Source: a virus
Taxonomy: Duplodnaviria > Caudoviricetes
Length of the DNA: 39,745 nucleotides
Reading direction: 5' to 3' (one strand)
Virus record (IMG/VR): IMGVR_UViG_3300020045_006736
Coordinates: 1 to 39,745 of that record
In this document: piece by piece, positions 8,487-33,727 of the stretch
Numbering within the stretch: position 1 is the first letter of the stretch
Layout of the letters: every line of letters starts with the position of its first letter
Program-made: the position numbers and the translations under genes
Notes under the pieces: model-generated
What the model was told of the DNA's origin: nothing
What the model saw: only the letters and a program-made list of their open reading frames with translations
The model's database searches: none

Positions 8487-9320
8487 ATGTTGGAAGAATC
8501 GGAACTTCGCTACGACGATTACGACATTCTTTCAGCCTATTACCGAGAATTGGAAAGGCAACCGTGGAACAAGGACGCGGAGTACGACCTGGACGCAGGC
8601 TTGCCGGAACAGCGCAGCAACGAGCAAATCGACAAGCTGGTGCTCGGAAACATGCGTTTGGTAGTGACCATAGCGAATCGATACCACGCCGACGGGATGA
8701 CCAAACTGGATTTGATTCAGGAAGGAAATCTAGGATTGATACGCGCGGCGCAGAAGTTTGACCAGAGCCTTGGCATACGCTTTTCAACGTATGCCGGGCG
8801 ATGGATTTCCAGTTTCATTGAAAAGGCGATAATCAGGACACGAAGCATTGTCCATGCGTCCGATAAGATTTTGTCGGATAAAGCCGCGGTCAGCCGGATC
8901 GCCAATCAGCTTGAACTCAAGCTGGGGCGAACTCCAACGCGAGCCGAGGTACTTGCCGGTATTCCAAAAGGAAAAGAGCATTTAATCCCCACGGTCGATG
9001 TGGAATTTTACGATGCCCCACTGGTCGTTGAGCGGGATGGGGAGGAGATGGATCTTCTTAACGATGCCCGCTGCGCCAACCAGGAAACTCCGGAAGTACA
9101 GATACTCAACGAAGAGCTTAGTAAACACCTTTGGCAAGCGGTGTCCGAACTGTCGGATAAGCATCAATGGGTTCTTTCGGAACTGCTTTGCAAGGATAAA
9201 ACCATTTTAGAAGTCAGCGAGGCTATGGGCGCTTCGAGGCACGTAGTAAACCGGGTGTTAGCGGACGCCAAGACGATCATAGCGGACAGCGGGATAGGAG
9301 AACTGTGGATCGAGTGCTGA
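8487..9320 (+). CDS. Sigma70-family (RpoD/RpoS-like) RNA polymerase sigma factor
   Basis: Region 2 motifs NMRLVVTIANRY, DLIQEGNLGLIRAAQKFD and RFSTYA; region 3 LGRTPT; C-terminal region-4-like HTH. Confidence 0.92.
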   Translation: MLEESELRYDDYDILSAYYRELERQPWNKDAEYDLDAGLPEQRSNEQIDKLVLGNMRLVVTIANRYHADGMTKLDLIQEGNLGLIRAAQKFDQSLGIRFSTYAGRWISSFIEKAIIRTRSIVHASDKILSDKAAVSRIANQLELKLGRTPTRAEVLAGIPKGKEHLIPTVDVEFYDAPLVVERDGEEMDLLNDARCANQETPEVQILNEELSKHLWQAVSELSDKHQWVLSELLCKDKTILEVSEAMGASRHVVNRVLADAKTIIADSGIGELWIEC

Positions 9321-9892: not shown

Positions 9893-10117
9893 GGTATTTC
9901 TGAGTATGAAATTGATCGTTATAGATTTAAGATAACGCCTTCCATGTTCAAGAATTTTGACGCTGGTTTGTTTTGCATTAAAAATGAAAAATCCGTGTCT
10001 TACTACATCTTACCAAGTAAAGAACTTTCAAGCATTCAATCACTAAATTTGAAATTCGATAAACATCAAAATTCTAAATACGCGGATTTTCTAGTAAAGG
10101 TGGACTATAAGCAATGA
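9893..10117 (+). pseudogene. Probable 5'-truncated gene remnant upstream of the methyltransferase
   Basis: 74 sense codons with no stop in AT-rich DNA, ending in an ATGA overlap with the MTase start. Confidence 0.45.
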
Positions 10118-11025
10118 GACAGGCAGGTTTTCGCTTTATTGATCTATTCGCCGGAATCGGTGGGATAAGAATCCCGTTTGATAAATTTAACGGTGAGTGC
10201 GTATTCACATCTGAAATAGATGAATTTTGCCAAAAAACCTACAAGGCTAATTTTGGTGAAATTCCTTATGGAGATATTACAAAAATCAACCCAAAAGATA
10301 TACCCGACCATGATATTCTTCTCGGTGGCTTTCCTTGTCAGGCTTTCAGCATCATTGGGCACCAAAAGGGCTTTGAAGATACGCGCGGGACTTTATTTTT
10401 CAACATAGAAGAGATTTTAAGGGAAAAAAGACCTCGCGCTTTTCTTCTCGAAAACGTCAAACAACTTTATACGCATGACGGCGGGAAAACTTTTGCTACC
10501 ATACAAAAAAAACTGCGCGGCTTAGGGTACGATGTCCACGCCAAAATACTAAATTCTCTGGATTTCGGTATCCCGCAAAAAAGAGAAAGAACGTATATAG
10601 TTGGTTTTTTAGACAAGGTGAATTTCGATTTTCCGATTGGCGGTAAGCCGTATAATCTTTTAGATGTCCTTGAAGATGAGCGCGATGTATCTAAAACATA
10701 TCAAGCATCTGACTACATTGTTCGTAAAAGAAAAGATGCTGTTAAGGGTGAGCCACCCATGCCAAGCATCTGGCATGAAAATAAAAGCGGCAATATATCA
10801 GCACTTCCGTATTCTTGCGCGTTGCGGGCTTCCGCGTCTTATAATTACCTGTTAGTCAATGGTCGGCGCCGACCTACAGAACGAGAAATGCTGCGTTTAC
10901 AGGGCTTTCCTGATACTTTTAAGGTTGTAGTAAATTATTCTCAGACAAGAAAACAGGTTGGAAACTCGGTAAGCGTCCCCGTCGTCGAAAGCGTTGCTAA
11001 AAATTTGTTAGAGGCTGCTGGCTAA
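10114..11025 (+). CDS. DNA (cytosine-5)-methyltransferase, orphan
   Basis: Motif I FAGIGG, IV GFPCQ, VI ENV, VIII QKRER, IX RLQGFP, X GNSV; lower GC than neighbours. Confidence 0.96.
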   Translation: MRQAGFRFIDLFAGIGGIRIPFDKFNGECVFTSEIDEFCQKTYKANFGEIPYGDITKINPKDIPDHDILLGGFPCQAFSIIGHQKGFEDTRGTLFFNIEEILREKRPRAFLLENVKQLYTHDGGKTFATIQKKLRGLGYDVHAKILNSLDFGIPQKRERTYIVGFLDKVNFDFPIGGKPYNLLDVLEDERDVSKTYQASDYIVRKRKDAVKGEPPMPSIWHENKSGNISALPYSCALRASASYNYLLVNGRRRPTEREMLRLQGFPDTFKVVVNYSQTRKQVGNSVSVPVVESVAKNLLEAAG

Positions 11026-11948: not shown

Positions 11949-12824
11949 ATGAAGCAATATCTAAGCCTGATGGGCGACGTTCTCCAGAATGGGGTGGAAA
12001 AAACCGACAGGACCGGAACCGGAACCATTTCGGTGTTTGGAAGGCAGCTAACCTTCAATCTACAGGAAGGCTTTCCGCTGCTTACCACCAAAAAAATGTT
12101 CTACAAAGGCGCTTTTGTAGAAACGCTTTGGTACTTGCGCGGCGACGCCAGCCTTGATTACCTGCACGAGAACGGGGTGCATTATTGGGACAAGTGGGCC
12201 ACCAAGGACGGGAGTTTAGGACCGGTGTACCCAGAGCAGTTCAGGCATTGGGAGATCGATCGAGAGTGGACGGTTGCCGTGGACAGGGGCAGGTGCACAG
12301 TGAAACCCATCGAAGTGGATCAGCTTCAGACACTCATCGATGGGTTGAGGAACCGGCCGGACAGTCGAAGGCATCTGGTTTCCGCATGGAACGTCGCGAA
12401 GCTGCCAGACGAAACGATGTCCCCGCAAGAGAACGTACTCGAAGATCGCATGGCCCTGGCGCCATGCCATGCGTTTTTTCAGTGCTACGTAGCGAACGGG
12501 GAGCTGTCCCTGCAAGTCTATCAGCGATCCGCAGATGTCTTTATCGGCTTGCCGGTCAACATCGCGAGCTACGCCTTGCTTACCCATTTACTCGCACACC
12601 AATGCGACCTTTTACCGGGAAAGCTTATCTGGGTAGGCGGAGACGTACATCTCTATTCGGACCACATTGAGCAAGCGGAACTGCAACGAACACGGATGCC
12701 AAAGGATCTTCCAAAGCTCAAGATAAAGCGTAAGCCCCCATCGCTGTTTGAGTACGAGTACGAGGATTTTGAGTTAGAAGGGTACGATTCCTGGCCGCAC
12801 ATCGCGGCGCCAGTGGCTGTTTGA
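11949..12824 (+). CDS. thyA: Thymidylate synthase
   Basis: [18 protein letters not shown], catalytic PCH, QRSAD..IG.P.NIASY and GD.HLY motifs. Confidence 0.97.
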
Positions 12825-25668: not shown

Positions 25669-27045
25669 ATGTTGGAACAAGAGAAGTATCAGGAAGTCTG
25701 GAAACACGAGCAATATCGTACCGTGGCTCCAGGAGAGCACTGCGTTGATCTATTCTTGCAATTAGCAAAACCGAAGGCGACCGATACCATTACGGATTAC
25801 GGTGCTGGAACGGGAAGGGCGGCGCTGAAGCTGGCGGATGCCGCTAAAGTCAGAATGCTGGACTTTACCACCAACAGTCTGGATCCGATAGTCCAGGAGC
25901 ATCTGAACGAGCGGTTGGTGTTTGCGCAGCACGATTTGACTCAACCGATAACCGACTTCACCAAGTACGGGTATTGCTGCGATGTCATGGAGCACATCCC
26001 GCCGGAAGATGTGCTGACGGTTCTGAAGAACATTACCCAGTCCTGCCGGCACTGCTTTTTTCAGATTTCTTGCGTTCCCGATGTTATGGGCGCACTGATT
26101 GGGGAGCAATTGCATCTTACGGTGCAGCCGTATTCCTGGTGGCTTGACCGGTTCAATGAGATTGGCTGCGCGGTTCGCTTCTCGAAAGACCTGGAAACCC
26201 ACTGCCTGTTTTACGTATCGGCATGGGCGAACGGGGGCGATGTAGCGGTTATCGCGAAGGTTAATACCGAGGATGAAGAAATTCGCGCCAACGTCAAGCA
26301 CAATATTCAGCTAGGGCTTTCGGAAGCTAAGCCATATGAACAGCAAGAGCAGGAGCTGATCATCCTGGCTGGCGGACCGAGCTTGAACGATTTCAAAGAC
26401 GAAATCCTGATCAACAAGAAGATGGGGCTACCCATTGTAACCCTTAACGGGGCGTACAATTGGGCGATAGAGCACGGTATCAAGCCGGATGTGCAGATCA
26501 TCCTCGATGCTCGTGAGTTCAATAAAAGGTTCCTGGAACCTATCGTTCCAACCTGTAAATACCTACTATCCTCTCAGTGCCATCCAAATTTGATAAAATC
26601 GGTGCCACCGGAGCAAGTTACCTTGTGGCATAGTGGGGCCGCGGTAGTTCGATCCGTAGTTGAAGAATTGGGCATTGAGCGGGACGTGTATCCTGTGTAC
26701 GGGGGTATGACTGTGCCGCTACGGGCGATACCGCTATTAATCATGCTGGGCTTTCACCGCTTCGTGATTTACGGCTTCGATTCATGCTTGAAGAAGGATG
26801 AGCACCACGCCTACGCGCAGCCGGAAAACGATTACAACACCGTACTAGAGGTTGAATGCGGCGGGCGGTACTTTAAATGTCATGGCTGGATGGTCAGCCA
26901 GGCGCAGGAATGGTTGCAGTTGCAGGACATGATCGCGGATCTCTGTGAGATAGAAGTGAAAGGCGATGGTTTGATAGCCCACACCATTCGTACCGGGGCG
27001 GACATAGCGAAAACAAAGACTATAGGTTCGGAGACCAACATATAG
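25669..27045 (+). CDS. Class I SAM methyltransferase fused to MAF/DUF115 (MptE-like) domain
   Basis: DYGAGTG and DVMEHIP in the N-half; IILAGGPSL, N.A......IKPD....LDA and GG.TV...A......GF.....YGFD in the C-half. Confidence 0.7.
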   Translation: MLEQEKYQEVWKHEQYRTVAPGEHCVDLFLQLAKPKATDTITDYGAGTGRAALKLADAAKVRMLDFTTNSLDPIVQEHLNERLVFAQHDLTQPITDFTKYGYCCDVMEHIPPEDVLTVLKNITQSCRHCFFQISCVPDVMGALIGEQLHLTVQPYSWWLDRFNEIGCAVRFSKDLETHCLFYVSAWANGGDVAVIAKVNTEDEEIRANVKHNIQLGLSEAKPYEQQEQELIILAGGPSLNDFKDEILINKKMGLPIVTLNGAYNWAIEHGIKPDVQIILDAREFNKRFLEPIVPTCKYLLSSQCHPNLIKSVPPEQVTLWHSGAAVVRSVVEELGIERDVYPVYGGMTVPLRAIPLLIMLGFHRFVIYGFDSCLKKDEHHAYAQPENDYNTVLEVECGGRYFKCHGWMVSQAQEWLQLQDMIADLCEIEVKGDGLIAHTIRTGADIAKTKTIGSETNI

Positions 27046-27056
27046 TATACTTATTG

Positions 27057-27112
27057 TGCAGGATAGGATGGCCGTCCGATAAGCTCGCACCGCTCTCAGC
27101 GAGTTTCCTGCA
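27057..27112 (+). ncRNA. C4-antisense-like three-stem RNA upstream of HNH gene
   Basis: Stems TGCAGGA/TCCTGCA, GGAT/GTCC and CTCGC/GCGAG. Loop ACCGCTCTCA is complementary to TGAGGG (27122) and GAGCGG (27140). Confidence 0.55.
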
Positions 27113-27149
27113 ACCACTTAATGAGGGCTAAATTAGGTGGAGCGGGCCG

Positions 27150-27758
27150 ATGAAAGTGTGTACGAAGTGCGGGGTGGAGAAAGCGTATAGCGAGTTCGGA
27201 ACACGAAAAAACCTCCTGGATGGGCTGAGTAAACAGTGTAAGGATTGCGTTAGGAAATATGACCGGGAATATTATTCTAAAAATAGAGAGGCTTGCATGG
27301 CAAGGAGCCGCAAGTGGCAGAATGCCAATAAGGATAAGTTATGGCATGTAGCGTATGCGGATAAAGCAAAAATACGCAGAGCGATATATAAAGCCGGAAA
27401 TAAAGAACGAATAAGTGAATCTGGAAAAGCGTATCGGTTAAATAACGCTGAAAAAGAAAGAATACGGCATAAGGAGTATGCAGTAAATAACAGGGGTAAA
27501 AGGGCTGCAAATGAAGATAGAAGACGAAATTCTATGAGAATAGCTACTCCTATGTGGGCTAATTTATTTTTTATAGAAGAAGCATATTCATTAGCTAAAC
27601 TTAGAACTGAAATTACCGGGCATAAGTGGCACGTTGATCACATAGTTCCTTTGCAAAGCGAAATAGTATGCGGGCTGCATGTACACGATAATATTCGAGT
27701 AGTTCTTGGAAAAGTGAACATGCAAAAATATAATAGGGTTTGGCCTGACATGCCGTGA
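27150..27758 (+). mobile_element. Free-standing HNH homing endonuclease with N-terminal Cys4 zinc finger
   Basis: C..C...C..C at the N-terminus; TP.WA...HVDHIVPLQ..VCGLHV..N HNH motif; AT-rich. Confidence 0.88.
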
Positions 27759-27814
27759 AACTGTTAACCGGGCGATAGCCCATTTTTAAACATTGACTAT
27801 CGGGAGATACTCAA

Positions 27815-28514
27815 ATGGCTGCAGGCTTATAGTTTAGGCCCCCGGTAAGGTAACTTATCGGTAAACTCTGTGTGAATTGCTGGAAAACCCGACCGCTAAA
27901 GACGAGGGCAATCAGCAGCGAAGCCGAGCGATCGGAACGTTCAACGACTATCCCGAGAGGGAGTACGCTCAAGCGAGTGGAAGCGCACAGCACCCAGAAA
28001 TGGGTGAAGATATAGTCTACTCTTTATAGTAATATAAAGCAGGGTATAATCCCGGATAACTTGGTAGCGTAAGTTATTGAATTATAAGGCGTATACACTT
28101 TATAATGAAAGTAAGAAATATTTGAACACCGGGCAAATTGACCTCGACACCAACAACTTATTTTCTAAGCTGTTTAAATCGACAAGTAATGCCTCGACAT
28201 ATACTTTGTCAAATACTTCGGAATTGACCAACCCGGTATCGGGCGGTGGTTATACTGGACAGAAGGCGTTAACTTCGGTTGTCGTAACCGCGGGCGCGTC
28301 TGCTAAACAGATTAAGTTCGATGCTGCGGACGTTATTTACACTGCGTCGGGCGGTAACGTGGGTTCGATTATGTACGACGTTATTTTCGCGTCGGGCGGT
28401 AAGTTGATTTGTTGGGCTAAACTTAGTACGGCCGCATTTACTGTGACCTCTGGGAATACTCTGACTAACCAATTCAACTCAGCGGGTATTTTTACTATTA
28501 CATCTAGCCCGTAG
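27815..28514 (+). CDS. Intron-split virion structural protein: join(27815..27827, 28090..28514), 145 aa
   Basis: GGGAG SD and ATG at 27815; splicing restores MAAGSYTLYNESKKYLNTGQIDLDT... Confidence 0.75.
27828..28089 (+). ncRNA. Group I self-splicing intron (IA2-like, ORF-less, ~262 nt)
   Basis: P AATTGCTGGAAA (27875), Q AATCAGCAG (27910), R GTTCAACGACTA (27939), S AAGATATAGTC (28007). P3 CTGTGTG/CGCACAG, P7 GACTA/TAGTC, hairpins for P7.1, P7.2, P8 and P9. P1 has a U.G pair; terminal G. Confidence 0.92.
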
Positions 28515-28630
28515 TAGTAATTTAATATCCATCCGCAGGTGCATTGAGGGTAGAATACCGGCAATCAATTTTCGGTAGCTACCCTAGCCGAGAGTAGTAT
28601 TTGTAAACATTTCATTGTCGGGAGACAACA

Positions 28631-28822: not shown

Positions 28823-28870
28823 CCGCGTCAGCGGTTGCCGCAGCTCTTTTCTAAATTATCGAGGTTCTTT

Positions 28871-29953
28871 ATGCGATTTGCTAAGCAGTTTAATCGTGCC
28901 TTACGCTTTGCGGCGATGGGCATGGTCTTTTCAACATCCAGTATGGCGGCCACGATGATTGTGGACAGAGGCTTCGAGACCGGGGAGCTGACCGGTCTTG
29001 TCTGCTCCGGTAACTGCCCTACGGTAGTTTCCTCACCGACCGCTGCCGGGTCTAAATTCTCCGGAAGTTTTGCTTTGACTCGCGACATGCGAATCCCTTA
29101 CCGGACTGAAATTACGTTCGGGCCAAAGGGTAAATTCGAGTTCGGGAAAGAATACTGGGTCGGATTTAATTATCGGTTTGAAGACTGGGAGCGGGATGGA
29201 AGTCCAGAGATGGCTCCGTTCCAGGTTCATGAAGCCACCCTAGACTGGGACGCAACCTGCGGCTGGGGATCAGCGGTCGGTAACGCGCCATTCTATATGC
29301 TCACCCAACACGGTAAGGTCGAATTTCGAGTGTACCGCAGCCGAACCATGTGGGAAGAACCCATAGTTCGGGGTAAGTGGGCTGGTATGACACTACACTT
29401 TAAAATATCCCCGAACGATGACGGCTTTATAGAAGCTTGGAAAGACGGCGAGAAGCTGTTCTCGACCACAGGGAAGAACACCAATGGACTGGACAAGTGC
29501 GGCAGGCCTATGAAGCCTACCTACATGAAAATGGGCATTTACAAGTGGGATTGGAAGGCTGGTAGACCGGACACCCAATCCTCGCGGCGTGAACTGTTCT
29601 TAGACAATCTGAAAATCGCTTCCGGAGAAGACGGCTTCGCGCTGGTATCTACGCCGGTTGAAGCACTCCCACCACCACCACCACCGCCTCCGCCCGAACC
29701 AACGCCTACTGACATACCAGTAATAAGCGGCGCAGGGGCTGTTGTTAACGGCACGACGGCTACTGTTAGCTGGGTATCCCAAGCGCAGAAAGGATCCGCC
29801 AGAATAACGCATTCGGTGGTGCTTACAGGACTTACCCCAGGATCCGTAGTCAGCTATGTTATCAAAGCTACGAACAGCAAGGACAAAGTGACGGCCAGCG
29901 AGACGCTGACATTTACGGTGCCAGAAATAGAACCGGAACCAGAGTTACCTTAG
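28871..29953 (+). CDS. Secreted polysaccharide lyase (heparin lyase I / jelly-roll type) with Pro linker and Fn3-like tail
   Basis: Signal-like N-terminus ending SMA; R.E, EYW.GF, Q.H, G.IEAWKDG and YMKMGIYK motifs; poly-Pro linker; HSV.LTGL.PG. Confidence 0.7.
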   Translation: MRFAKQFNRALRFAAMGMVFSTSSMAATMIVDRGFETGELTGLVCSGNCPTVVSSPTAAGSKFSGSFALTRDMRIPYRTEITFGPKGKFEFGKEYWVGFNYRFEDWERDGSPEMAPFQVHEATLDWDATCGWGSAVGNAPFYMLTQHGKVEFRVYRSRTMWEEPIVRGKWAGMTLHFKISPNDDGFIEAWKDGEKLFSTTGKNTNGLDKCGRPMKPTYMKMGIYKWDWKAGRPDTQSSRRELFLDNLKIASGEDGFALVSTPVEALPPPPPPPPPEPTPTDIPVISGAGAVVNGTTATVSWVSQAQKGSARITHSVVLTGLTPGSVVSYVIKATNSKDKVTASETLTFTVPEIEPEPELP

Positions 29954-31237: not shown

Positions 31238-33727
31238 ATGGCAATTAGCGCAACTAATCTTGACACTATAAATTCAAGTACGGATGCGGCATCCTATGCG
31301 TTCGCTTCACAGACGTATTCCAATAACAAGCTATATTTATTATTCGTAACTACGTCCATAGGATCAGGATCCGCGCCTACTGTCACTGATATATCGGGGG
31401 GCGGGCTGTCGTTTACATCCATCACATCCACGACGTTTGGGTCAACAAGGCGCCTTGAAGCGTTCAGGGCGCTGCCTACTTCTGGGGCGACTACAGGAGT
31501 TGTTACGATAACGCTTAGCACTACCGGTCAGGGGTGCGAGGCTTGCATCGTTGAACTTGATGGGATGGATACCTCTGGAACTAATGGATCCGGGGCTATT
31601 GTTCAAAGTGCAACTGTCTCTAGCACTTCCGGGGGGACTTCAGCAACGGTAACGCTAGCCGCTTTCGGCAGCACTGATAATAGGCCGGTAGCGTTTTTCA
31701 ATCACAGGGCAGATGAAGCGGTTACTGAGGAAGGCGGATATGCTGTTTTAGCCTCTGGGAATCATGCTTCTCCGAGCATGGGATTTTTATGCGAATGGCT
31801 GTCCGGGTCCACAGATACCACGCCATCCGCTTCCTGGACCACTAGCGCCAACAACGGGGGCGTAGCGGTTGAGGTTAAGGCCGCTGCGGGGAATACAACG
31901 CTCCCTGGCGCCGGCAGTTGTGTATACGCTGGTCAGGCACCGACCGAAGCGCAAACATTTTCTACGGCTCCCGGCGTCGGCAGTAAGGTCTACACCGGTC
32001 AAGCACCTACCGAGGTGCAAACGACCGATACGTTCACCGCACCGGGCGTCGGCAGCAAGGTCTACACCGGCCAAGCACCGACCGAGGTGCAGACGGCCAA
32101 TGCGTTCACCGCACCGGGCGTCGGCAGCAAGGTCTACACCGGTCAAGCACCTACCGAAGCGCAAACATTTTCTACGGCTCCCGGCGTCGGCAGCAAGGTC
32201 TACACCGGTCAAGCACCTACCGAAGCGCAGACGGCCAATGCGTTCACCGCGCCGGGCGTCGGCAGCAAGGACTACACCGGTCAAGCGCCGACCGAGGTGC
32301 AGACACTCAATGCGTTCACCGCACCGGGCGTCGGCAGCAAGGTCTACACCGGCCAAGCACCTACCGAAGCGCAGACGGCCAATGCGTTCACCGAGCCGGG
32401 CGTCGGTAGCAAGGTTTACACCGGCCAAGCGCCAACACTGAACTTAGGGGACAGCCAGACGGCTCAGCCAGGGGCAGGCAGTAAGGTTTACACCGGTCAA
32501 GCACCTACCGAAGCGCAGACGGCCAATGCGTTCACCGCACCGGGCGTCGGCAGTAAGGTCTACTCCGGTCAAGCGCCGACCGAAGCGCAGACACTCAATG
32601 CGTTCACCGCACCGGGCGTCGGTAGCAAGGTTTACACCGGACAAGCACCGACCGAGGTTCAGACGGCCAATGCGTTCACCGCACCGGGCGTCGGCAGTAA
32701 GGTCTACACCGGCCAAGCACCTACCGAAGCGCAGACGGCCAATGCGTTCACCGCACCAGGCGTCGGTAGCAAGGTTTACACCGGCCAAGCGCCAACACTG
32801 AACTTAGGGGATAGTCAGACGGCTCAGCCTGGGGCGGGCAGTAAAGTCTACACCGGCCAAGCACCATCCGAAGCGCAAACGTTCAACGTGTTCACCACAC
32901 CGAGCGACGGAGCCATTCTCTACTCCGGCCAAGCACCGACCGAAGCGCAAACGTTCAACGTGTTCTCCTCGCCTAGTTTCGGATCCATTCTCTACACCGG
33001 CCAAGCACCGACCGAGGCGCAAACGTTCAACGTGTTCACCGCGCCGAGCGATGGATCCATTCTCTACACCGGCCAAGCACCGACCGAAGCGCAGACGGCC
33101 AATCAGTTCTCCTCGCCTAGTTTCGGGGCGGTCCTCTACTCTGGGCAGCAATCCGCCGTACAGAACGGAGACAGTCACGTCAGGCAACCTGGAAGCGGGG
33201 AGAAAATTTACACTGGGCAGCAACCTACGGCGAACTTCTCGCACAGCGCGGCACCAGGACAAGGGACGGTGCTGTACGGAGGAACGCAGTCCACGATTAT
33301 TACCGCGAGCAATCAGTTCGCAGCTCCAGGATTTGGCGCAAAAGTCTATTCAGGGCAGGCATCGACGATCACAAATCAATACTTCAGCTACGTTAATTTC
33401 GGTACGGTAACGTATACTGGAACCAGCGGGATTATTGATTTGAGGATTGCGTCCGCTACTGGCAGTATGCTCTATACCGGGTTGACTACCACTGTCACGC
33501 AGGGGGACGTTCGGTTACTGGGTGCAGGCGAGCAGCAATACTCTGGGCAAGTGCCGGTGTTCTTTTACTCTACAGGAACATTCACATTCCCTTCGGCTGG
33601 TACCGAGGTGTACGTTGGGGGACAGCCGATTGCGAACACAAGCCGCCTGGTACCGGACGCATCGATATTAAGGGTTGTGTGCGGGAATCCGTATAAAAGC
33701 GTAGTGCTAGGGTTTAGATCCAATTAA
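31238..33727 (+). CDS. Tail fibre/spike-like protein with 22-24-aa tandem repeats
   Basis: 829 aa; S/T/G-rich N-domain followed by TAPGVGSKVYTGQAPTEAQTANAF repeats. Confidence 0.7.
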   Translation: MAISATNLDTINSSTDAASYAFASQTYSNNKLYLLFVTTSIGSGSAPTVTDISGGGLSFTSITSTTFGSTRRLEAFRALPTSGATTGVVTITLSTTGQGCEACIVELDGMDTSGTNGSGAIVQSATVSSTSGGTSATVTLAAFGSTDNRPVAFFNHRADEAVTEEGGYAVLASGNHASPSMGFLCEWLSGSTDTTPSASWTTSANNGGVAVEVKAAAGNTTLPGAGSCVYAGQAPTEAQTFSTAPGVGSKVYTGQAPTEVQTTDTFTAPGVGSKVYTGQAPTEVQTANAFTAPGVGSKVYTGQAPTEAQTFSTAPGVGSKVYTGQAPTEAQTANAFTAPGVGSKDYTGQAPTEVQTLNAFTAPGVGSKVYTGQAPTEAQTANAFTEPGVGSKVYTGQAPTLNLGDSQTAQPGAGSKVYTGQAPTEAQTANAFTAPGVGSKVYSGQAPTEAQTLNAFTAPGVGSKVYTGQAPTEVQTANAFTAPGVGSKVYTGQAPTEAQTANAFTAPGVGSKVYTGQAPTLNLGDSQTAQPGAGSKVYTGQAPSEAQTFNVFTTPSDGAILYSGQAPTEAQTFNVFSSPSFGSILYTGQAPTEAQTFNVFTAPSDGSILYTGQAPTEAQTANQFSSPSFGAVLYSGQQSAVQNGDSHVRQPGSGEKIYTGQQPTANFSHSAAPGQGTVLYGGTQSTIITASNQFAAPGFGAKVYSGQASTITNQYFSYVNFGTVTYTGTSGIIDLRIASATGSMLYTGLTTTVTQGDVRLLGAGEQQYSGQVPVFFYSTGTFTFPSAGTEVYVGGQPIANTSRLVPDASILRVVCGNPYKSVVLGFRSN
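31903..33120 (+). repeat. 66/72-bp tandem repeat array inside tail gene
   Basis: Near-identical units, plus a higher-order duplication with 360-bp offset (32431 vs 32791). Confidence 0.92.

What the first reader, a model, noticed from the sequence alone, without database searches (positions are those of the whole stretch)
27815..28514. Group I ribozyme splitting a virion gene after a 13-nt first exon
Seen: a complete P1-P9 core. P1 GGCU/GGCC puts a U.G pair at 27827. Unspliced RNA reads MAAGL-stop; splicing 27828-28089 yields MAAGSYTLYN... (a one-base-shifted junction giving MAAGAY is also in frame but lacks the U.G site). The ORF track's TTG start at 28077 is therefore probably false. The intron ends can also pair with each other (CTTATAGTT/AATTATAAG), competing with P1. 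Known: phage group I introns are mostly in DNA-metabolism genes. Inference: splicing gates production of a structural protein.
Basis: partly seen in the sequence, partly recalled or inferred. Interest (0 to 1): 0.75.

Follow-up and report, generated by a model that had tools for sequence, protein, structure and literature searches.

The report
Intron pile-up in phage virion gene
A self-splicing-type intron interrupts a predicted tail-fibre adaptor gene of an uncultured phage after only 13 coding bases, and relatives carry up to three other such introns in the first 83 bases of the same gene, likely spread by a DNA-cutting enzyme gene that sits just upstream rather than kept to control the protein.

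Summary
The intron is real. It is a 262-nt ORF-less group I intron (27828-28089; Rfam RF00028, 97.8 bits) with IA2-type helices, U at the 5' site and G at the 3' end. Removing it gives MAAGSY..., the start of 8 of the 11 closest homologues. The 145-aa product folds like phage tail-fibre adaptor and baseplate domains. First, a free-standing HNH-like endonuclease gene (27150-27758) ends 56 nt upstream. Second, relatives carry four other ORF-less introns in this gene (CDS nt 23, 36, 66, 83), up to three per allele, with a 13-nt internal exon. All 5 intron-bearing allele clusters with upstream DNA have the endonuclease or its likely scar upstream, against 5 of 126 intronless clusters. Near-identical introns sit in diverged alleles, and the endonuclease gene is swapped under them. 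Best reading: a collaborative-homing hot spot (cleavage untested). 'Splicing gates production' is not supported: most alleles lack introns, and the end-to-end pairing is unique to this intron and predicted to lose to P1. No RNA spans the junction. Precedents: Twort orf142, ICP1 terminase, S-PM2 psbA. Earlier scan notes held nothing on this gene.

The parts
27055..27149 (+). Leader of the endonuclease cassette (structured, int-alpA-like in a relative)
   Evidence: Aligns with the leader of the L107 HNH gene and with the L088 intergenic stretch; the L107 copy scores 41.7 bits on RF02996, cut-off 35.8, while the window copy does not hit
27150..27758 (+). Free-standing HNH-like endonuclease gene, 202 aa: N-terminal CxxC..CxxC finger, helical linker, C-terminal DHIxP..VCGLH..N motif; 40% GC against 51% for the window
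   Evidence: PHROG endonuclease hits; invariant residues in 40 homologues; relatives annotated HNH in cultured phages; GC; fold searches weak
27794..27813 (+). Predicted hairpin over the Shine-Dalgarno sequence of the split gene (GGGA loop)
   Evidence: Folding; 25 of 27 cells pair across 7 loci, one pair with two-sided change; also present in intronless L001, so not intron-specific
27815..27827 (+). Exon 1, 13 nt (Met-Ala-Ala-Gly plus first base of Ser)
27828..28089 (+). ORF-less group I intron, 262 nt, IA2-type (P2, P7.1, P7.2, P9-P9.2), in-frame stop at 27830-27832
28090..28514 (+). Exon 2; the spliced product is a 145-aa beta-rich protein predicted to be a tail-fibre adaptor or collar-type virion domain
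   Evidence: Model pLDDT 95.6; all 7 PDB matches with Z>=5 are phage tail, neck or baseplate chains; BFVD TM 0.80 to a phage 7-7-1 structural protein; phrog_644, unknown function

Best explanation
[quoted passage not shown] Step 1 (shown by structure and homologues; activity inferred): the ribozyme excises itself at U27827/G28089 and restores the 145-aa virion protein. Step 2 (shown): the gap upstream of this gene is repeatedly occupied by endonuclease genes of different kinds, and they are swapped or deleted. Step 3 (inferred, untested): the endonuclease cuts or nicks the conserved first ~90 bp of the gene in co-infecting phages whose allele lacks the intron. The intron interrupts that site in its own genome, and repair copies endonuclease, 5' exons and introns together. 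Step 4 (inferred): each replacement endonuclease favours whichever intron breaks its own site, so different introns collect at nt 13, 23, 36, 66 and 83, up to three per allele. How an intron first reaches a new site is not addressed by my data (reverse splicing is the textbook route; own knowledge).
For: Five sites, each U|...G and each restoring the frame, all within the first 83 of 435 nt. Uniform-placement probability is 2.5e-4, or 3e-3 for a span of 70 nt anywhere, while protein conservation is flat along the gene (0.65-0.72). Of 131 allele clusters (95% identity) with at least 300 nt upstream, 5 of 5 intron-bearing ones have the HNH gene (4) or its likely deletion scar (L088), against 5 of 126 intronless ones (L001 3' remnant; other endonuclease types in L004, L106, L109, L186) (Fisher 8e-7, not corrected for kinship). 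Intron alleles fall in 3 places on the gene tree; one clade is rejected (AU p=0.004). L091 against L089/L107: upstream 28 nt, exon 1 and exon 2 are 100% identical and both introns 99%, then exon 3 drops to 25/30 and the last exon to 84-86% (third positions 68-69%), a conversion-tract pattern. L089 against L107: introns 99.7-100%, last exon 97%, HNH proteins only 40% identical, so the endonuclease was swapped. Published model: PMC6083498, PMC3984707, PMC10448857 (passages).
Against: No cleavage or homing assay exists, and the nuclease fold was not confirmed (Foldseek E>0.7, VIA best Z 4.4). All intron alleles lie in one close group (29 of 37 tree rows), so the counts are not independent. The complete relative G001 has a similar ORF-less intron in its major capsid gene, and the only match to this HNH family in that genome is the 33-aa remnant about 5 kb away, so such introns persist without an endonuclease neighbour. 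The HNH family is not generally tied to introns: 0 of 40 other loci by Rfam, 0 of 82 by my profile. Four intronless lineages have an upstream endonuclease. My locus searches kept only the 80 best hits per scan, which may under-count introns in mid-gene.
Confidence: 0.55

Rival explanations
1. Neutral passengers in an intron-rich lineage: the introns arrived with their own endonuclease ORFs or by reverse splicing, lost the ORFs, and stay because exact loss is rare; the upstream HNH gene is an independent lodger at the same recombination hot spot. PMC10448857 raises this turnover alternative for collaborative-homing loci.
For: ORF-less intron in the G001 capsid gene with no neighbouring endonuclease; the introns at nt 23 and 83 carry an extra ~60 nt in the P5 region; endonucleases upstream of intronless alleles; kinship inflates the association.
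Against: Does not by itself explain why five sites crowd the end next to the endonuclease, nor 99%-identical introns in alleles 85% identical downstream.
Confidence: 0.22
2. Splicing gates or times production of the virion protein: a ribosome starting at 27815 would cover P1, and the end-to-end helix would hold the intron inactive until some signal.
For: The 5' splice site is 13 nt from the start codon and an in-frame stop follows, so an initiating ribosome would overlap P1 (inference from known footprints); end pairing -9.9 kcal/mol, 0 of 500 shuffles; hairpin over the Shine-Dalgarno; translation affects folding of the T4 td intron (PMC3017892 passage).
Against: Most alleles have no intron; sites and introns differ between lineages; the pairing is absent in 4 of 4 other introns and costs 4.8 kcal/mol against P1; the hairpin is also in intronless L001.
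Confidence: 0.1
3. The 5' clustering reflects splicing tolerance: with a very short first exon there is little upstream RNA to misfold P1, so introns survive selection only near the start.
For: Exon-intron mispairing is a known trap for td; all five P1 helices are the locally favoured fold.
Against: The G001 capsid intron lies about 85 codons into its gene; does not explain the endonuclease link or the conversion tract.
Confidence: 0.09
4. No splicing needed: translation starts at TTG 28077 inside the intron end and gives a 145-aa protein with four different first residues.
For: The frame is open from 28077; no RNA read spans the junction.
Against: Met1-Ala2-Ala3 are 93-99% conserved in 68 homologues; the Shine-Dalgarno lies before 27815; relatives with introns at nt 36-83 could not use such a start.
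Confidence: 0.04

Closest known systems
Staphylococcus phage Twort orf142 (tail tube gene, three group I introns; passages in PMC11878797 and PMC10136302)
   Same: Small virion gene, three introns in one allele, IA2 subgroup, short internal exon (23 nt there, 13 and 30 nt in L091).
   Different: Different protein (adaptor-like fold, not tail tube) in a phage with an SU10-type portal and adaptor; five sites across lineages, all in the first 83 nt; a free-standing endonuclease next door, which the passages I read do not mention for orf142. Splicing and exon skipping were shown for Twort, not here.
Collaborative homing: F-CphI and the psbA intron of cyanophage S-PM2 (PMC6083498 passage); T3/T7-like phages (PMC10448857 passage)
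   Same: ORF-less group I intron with a free-standing endonuclease gene adjacent to the host gene.
   Different: There one intron and one enzyme, cleavage shown; F-CphI uses the Endo VII (DHHRN) motif at its C-terminus. Here an HNH-like C-terminus, several introns, swapped enzymes, a virion gene, and cleavage untested.
Vibrio phage ICP1 terminase intron with adjacent T5orf172 gene (PMC10448857 passages)
   Same: Endonuclease gene next to an un-annotated N-terminal exon; annotation called only the large downstream exon.
   Different: Different nuclease family and host gene; splicing there shown by RT-PCR; one intron described.
T4 free-standing mob/seg endonucleases and mobE trans-homing (PMC2988022 passages)
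   Same: Optional intergenic endonuclease genes; structured leader.
   Different: Targets here unknown; family not matched by Pfam (1 of 40 members weakly hits HNH_4).

Membership tests
Group I intron (RF00028) | P3-P7-P8 and P4-P6 core matching the covariance model | tested here: met
   97.8 bits, full model; helices; covariation in seven related introns
Group I intron (RF00028) | U.G pair in P1 at the 5' splice site and terminal G | tested here: met
   U27827.G27837; G28089 after P9.0; same rule at all five sites
Group I intron (RF00028) | Excision restores the host reading frame | tested here: met
   145 aa, N-terminus as in 8 of the 11 closest homologues
Group I intron (RF00028) | Guanosine-dependent self-splicing, spliced RNA in vivo | not testable with these tools
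   No contig of 8 runs laid spans either junction
Subgroup IA2 | P2, two stems P7.1/P7.2 between P7 and P3, P9.1/P9.2 (criteria recalled; classes described generally in PMC3984707) | tested here: met
   no subgroup-specific model was available to score it
Mobile group I intron with internal endonuclease | Endonuclease ORF inside an intron loop | tested here: not met
   262 nt with no room for one; relatives 252-319 nt
Collaborative homing pair | ORF-less intron with adjacent free-standing endonuclease gene | tested here: met
   27150-27758 next to 27815; same layout in L089, L091, L107
Collaborative homing pair | Enzyme cleaves the intronless allele and the intron blocks self-cleavage | not testable with these tools
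   Needs a cleavage assay
Collaborative homing pair | Co-conversion of intron and flanks between alleles | tested here: inconclusive
   Tract pattern in L091 against L089/L107; cause not shown
HNH (beta-beta-alpha-metal) homing endonuclease | His-Asn catalytic motif | tested here: met
   Invariant D163 H164, C174 G175 L176 H177, N181; N190/N195 in 90% or more; PHROG hits
HNH (beta-beta-alpha-metal) homing endonuclease | Fold match to a solved HNH domain | tested here: inconclusive
   Top Foldseek rows are mostly HNH domains but E>0.7; VIA best Z 4.4; C-terminus modelled poorly
Phage tail-fibre adaptor / baseplate-type virion domain | Fold shared with solved virion proteins | tested here: met
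   9f4a_AY Z 13.7, rmsd 2.4, 129 aligned; 8jou_a (GP4 fibre and fibre-tail adaptor) Z 9.2, rmsd 3.0, 118; 9d93_Ra Z 9.0, rmsd 2.2, 96
Phage tail-fibre adaptor / baseplate-type virion domain | Present in particles | not testable with these tools
   Uncultured phage; position after capsid and adaptor genes only

The most novel reading that the evidence does not exclude
The first 83 bp of this virion gene act as a shield array in phage-against-phage competition: each endonuclease that moves into the upstream gap targets a different spot there, and a matching ORF-less intron is recruited to break that spot. Successive swaps leave stacks of ribozymes separated by 13-30 nt micro-exons, a dated record of an endonuclease arms race. 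This would show how collaborative-homing loci arise and why phages keep empty introns.
Probability: 0.3. Interest if true: 0.78.

Novelty: new variant of a known kind. Interest (0 to 1): 0.58.

Why it matters
Papers read here call the bias of phage group I introns to DNA-metabolism genes unexplained (PMC12350094, PMC11878797) and say it is unclear how collaborative-homing layouts arise (PMC10448857). This locus offers natural alleles in each state: no enzyme and no intron (L086), enzyme remnant only (L001), intron with enzyme deleted (L088), and one, two or three introns with different enzymes (window, L089, L107, L091). The whole target is under 100 bp, so an enzyme-by-allele cleavage matrix is a small experiment. 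It also shows a routine annotation error: 11 of 27 close homologues in the protein collection are called without their N-terminus, several starting where an intron would end.

Tried and rejected
RNA evidence: 19 runs held a small share of the stretch. Eight were laid; none spans a junction. Deep cover on the intron core came from short, divergent pieces of other introns, and one 219-nt contig from an RNA library matched exon 2 only. No conclusion drawn. Pattern scans of viral contigs for the HNH end and the intron 3' end gave 2 and 1 hits, none at this gene; rejected as unrelated or chance. The genome collection gave 1 intronless locus, so no host could be named. Nearest cultured capsid relatives are Vibrio phages at 45%, and the gene's only cultured hits are mycobacteriophage hypothetical proteins at under 40%. 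General HNH-intron link rejected: 0 of 40 loci by Rfam, 0 of 82 by profile; 40 of the 80 HNH loci were not scanned with Rfam. End pairing as a shared switch rejected. Promoter scan was at chance level (6 against 3.7+-2.1). No solved-structure sequence match for the endonuclease; fold searches inconclusive. P10 is weak in this intron (4 of 5 pairs). One search used wrong columns and was repeated. Literature: searches showed no listing on introns in this gene family. The supplement of PMC11878797 (table of known split phage genes) could not be read and may list structural genes; subscription papers are not searched.

Full report
Setting. The window is a whole 39,745-nt linear IMG/VR record, about 43% complete. 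It is a tailed phage with terminase, SU10-type portal, major head protein and adaptor genes ahead of the finding and likely tail or virion genes after it. The host is unknown.

The observation. Rfam's group I model matches 27818-28039 at 97.8 bits, the only hit in the window. P1-P5, P7, P7.1, P8, P9, P9.2 and P9.0 pair base by base; P9.0 uses A28087-G28088 and leaves G28089 terminal. Many junctions keep the frame open, but only 27827/28090 has both the U.G pair and the homologue sequence. Of the 11 best homologues, 8 begin MAAGSY, 1 MASGSY and 2 are N-truncated. Intronless L086 even has the same TCG serine codon. The protein collection itself calls the window's gene from the false TTG (P0001). 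The end-to-end pairing is there (-9.9 kcal/mol, 0 of 500 shuffles; a comparison chosen after the fact). It is not seen in four related introns, and a folding model, which cannot form the P7 pseudoknot, prefers P1 by 4.8 kcal/mol.

The host protein. PHROG gives only an unknown family. The model is confident (pLDDT 95.6). Foldseek on PDB gave nothing under E 0.001, though its top rows were phage neck and fibre chains. BFVD gave TM 0.80 to a phage 7-7-1 structural protein. VIA-align gave 7 chains at Z>=5, all phage tail, neck or baseplate proteins, including the GP4 fibre and fibre-tail adaptor entry. A virion role in attaching fibres is likely, not shown.

Upstream lies a 202-aa ORF (27150-27758, 40% GC) with endonuclease PHROG hits, an invariant DHIxP..CGLH..N motif and relatives annotated HNH; its fold could not be confirmed. 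Among 239 loci holding the gene (144 clusters at 95%), five besides the window carry group I introns in it. L088 has one at CDS nt 83, L089 and L107 at 23 and 36, L091 at 23, 36 and 66, and L087 (cut by its contig end) at 36 but not 66. All are ORF-less, 252-319 nt, 55-79% identical between sites. Each has its own P1 with U.G and ends in G, and each restores a 145- or 151-aa frame (L107 as far as its contig goes); exon 2 in L089, L091 and L107 is 13 nt. Each scan kept only its best 80 hits (of 373, 337 and 176 found), so this is a sample.

Clustering and association. Five sites within 83 of 435 nt are unlikely under uniform placement (2.5e-4; 3e-3 for any 70-nt span), and conservation is flat along the protein. 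In the protein hits, 11 of 27 close homologues lack their N-terminus against 1 of 100 distant ones, and none lacks only its C-terminus. P0006, P0014, P0017 and P0245 begin at or next to where the nt-36 or nt-66 introns end, but contig edges could explain some and I could not see their DNA. Of 131 clusters with 300 nt upstream, the 5 with introns have the HNH gene (4) or, in L088, what looks like its leader fused to its last codons (an inferred deletion). Of 126 intronless clusters, L001 has a 33-codon remnant and L004, L106, L109 and L186 have other endonuclease-like genes. That PHROG scan took one upstream ORF for 127 of the 131 clusters and missed L004's, so small genes may be under-counted. 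Kinship inflates the association.

Movement. Intron alleles need three changes on the gene tree, and a single clade is rejected (AU p=0.004). L091 shares its upstream 28 nt and exons 1-2 exactly, and both introns at 99%, with L089 and L107, then falls to 84-86%: the intron block moved recently between diverged alleles. L089 and L107 share introns and exons (97-100%), but their endonucleases are 40% identical: the enzyme was replaced.

Against the reading. G001, a complete relative that is intronless at this gene, has a 251-nt ORF-less intron in its major capsid gene. A 96%-identical capsid allele lacks it, it is 1 of 80 capsid loci, and no HNH gene of this family lies beside it. The HNH family is common and not tied to introns elsewhere. 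No RNA spans the junction.

Mechanism. Splicing restores the protein (structure and homologues shown, activity inferred). I put 0.55 on collaborative homing as what spreads and stacks these introns, 0.22 on neutral passengers beside an unrelated lodger, 0.10 on regulatory gating, 0.09 on splicing tolerance near the start and 0.04 on no splicing. A ribosome at the start codon would overlap P1 (inference), so translation may affect splicing yield, but sporadic occurrence argues against a kept function.

Literature seen. Passages: PMC3984707 (also section 11 whole), PMC11878797, PMC2988022, PMC6083498, PMC10136302, PMC10448857, PMC3017892, PMC12350094. The primary papers by Landthaler and Shub, Zeng et al. 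and Bonocora and Shub were seen only as cited there. IA2 criteria and ribosome footprint size are recalled. Searches showed no listing on this gene family; one relevant supplement was unreadable. Earlier scan notes had nothing on this genome or sequence; a word search listed eight notes on other phage introns and endonucleases, which did not change my reading.

Verdict. A real intron at the stated sites, in a likely virion gene. The larger feature is a multi-intron hot spot beside a revolving free-standing endonuclease: a new variant of known elements, interest 0.58.

Noticed in passing
L328:351-601 (G001, complete 64.8-kb relative): ORF-less IA2-like group I intron (251 nt, RF00028 86.6 bits) in the major capsid gene; removal gives the sequence of intronless L329 (96% identical protein); 1 of 80 capsid loci; no HNH gene of this family beside it.
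   Followed up: partly
L088:2480-2570: Intergenic stretch looks like the endonuclease leader joined to the last codons of the ORF through a short repeated word, i.e. a clean deletion of the whole HNH gene; L001 keeps only the last 33 codons.
   Followed up: partly
L107:1084-1149; window 27055-27149: The endonuclease leader in L107 passes the Rfam int-alpA (RF02996) cut-off; the window and L088 copies align with it but do not hit.
   Followed up: partly
window 27794-27813 and 28614-28628: Hairpins with a GGGA loop over the Shine-Dalgarno sequence precede both the split gene and the next 63-aa ORF; kept in L001, L089, L091, L107, weak in L088, absent in L086.
   Followed up: partly
L106, L109, L186, L004: Unrelated endonuclease-like genes (phrog_9019/945/314 hits) sit right upstream of intronless alleles of the same gene, so this gap is invaded repeatedly.
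   Followed up: partly
window 31238-33727: 829-aa ORF with a long array of about 27-residue repeats (APGVGSKVYTGQAPTE...), no Pfam or PHROG hit; likely a fibre that the adaptor could carry.
   Followed up: no
window 28835-29953 and 25669-27045: A polysaccharide-lyase-like gene (PF14099) with a proline linker, and a methyltransferase/MptE-like fusion (PF01973) that precedes the split gene in several relatives.
   Followed up: no
P0006, P0010, P0014, P0017, P0243, P0245: Homologues called without their first 12-22 residues; probable further intron-bearing alleles, DNA not seen.
   Followed up: partly
window 8487-9320, 10114-11025, 11949-12824: Phage-encoded sigma-70-type factor, C5 methylase and an uninterrupted thymidylate synthase gene, the classic intron target, which is intronless here.
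   Followed up: no
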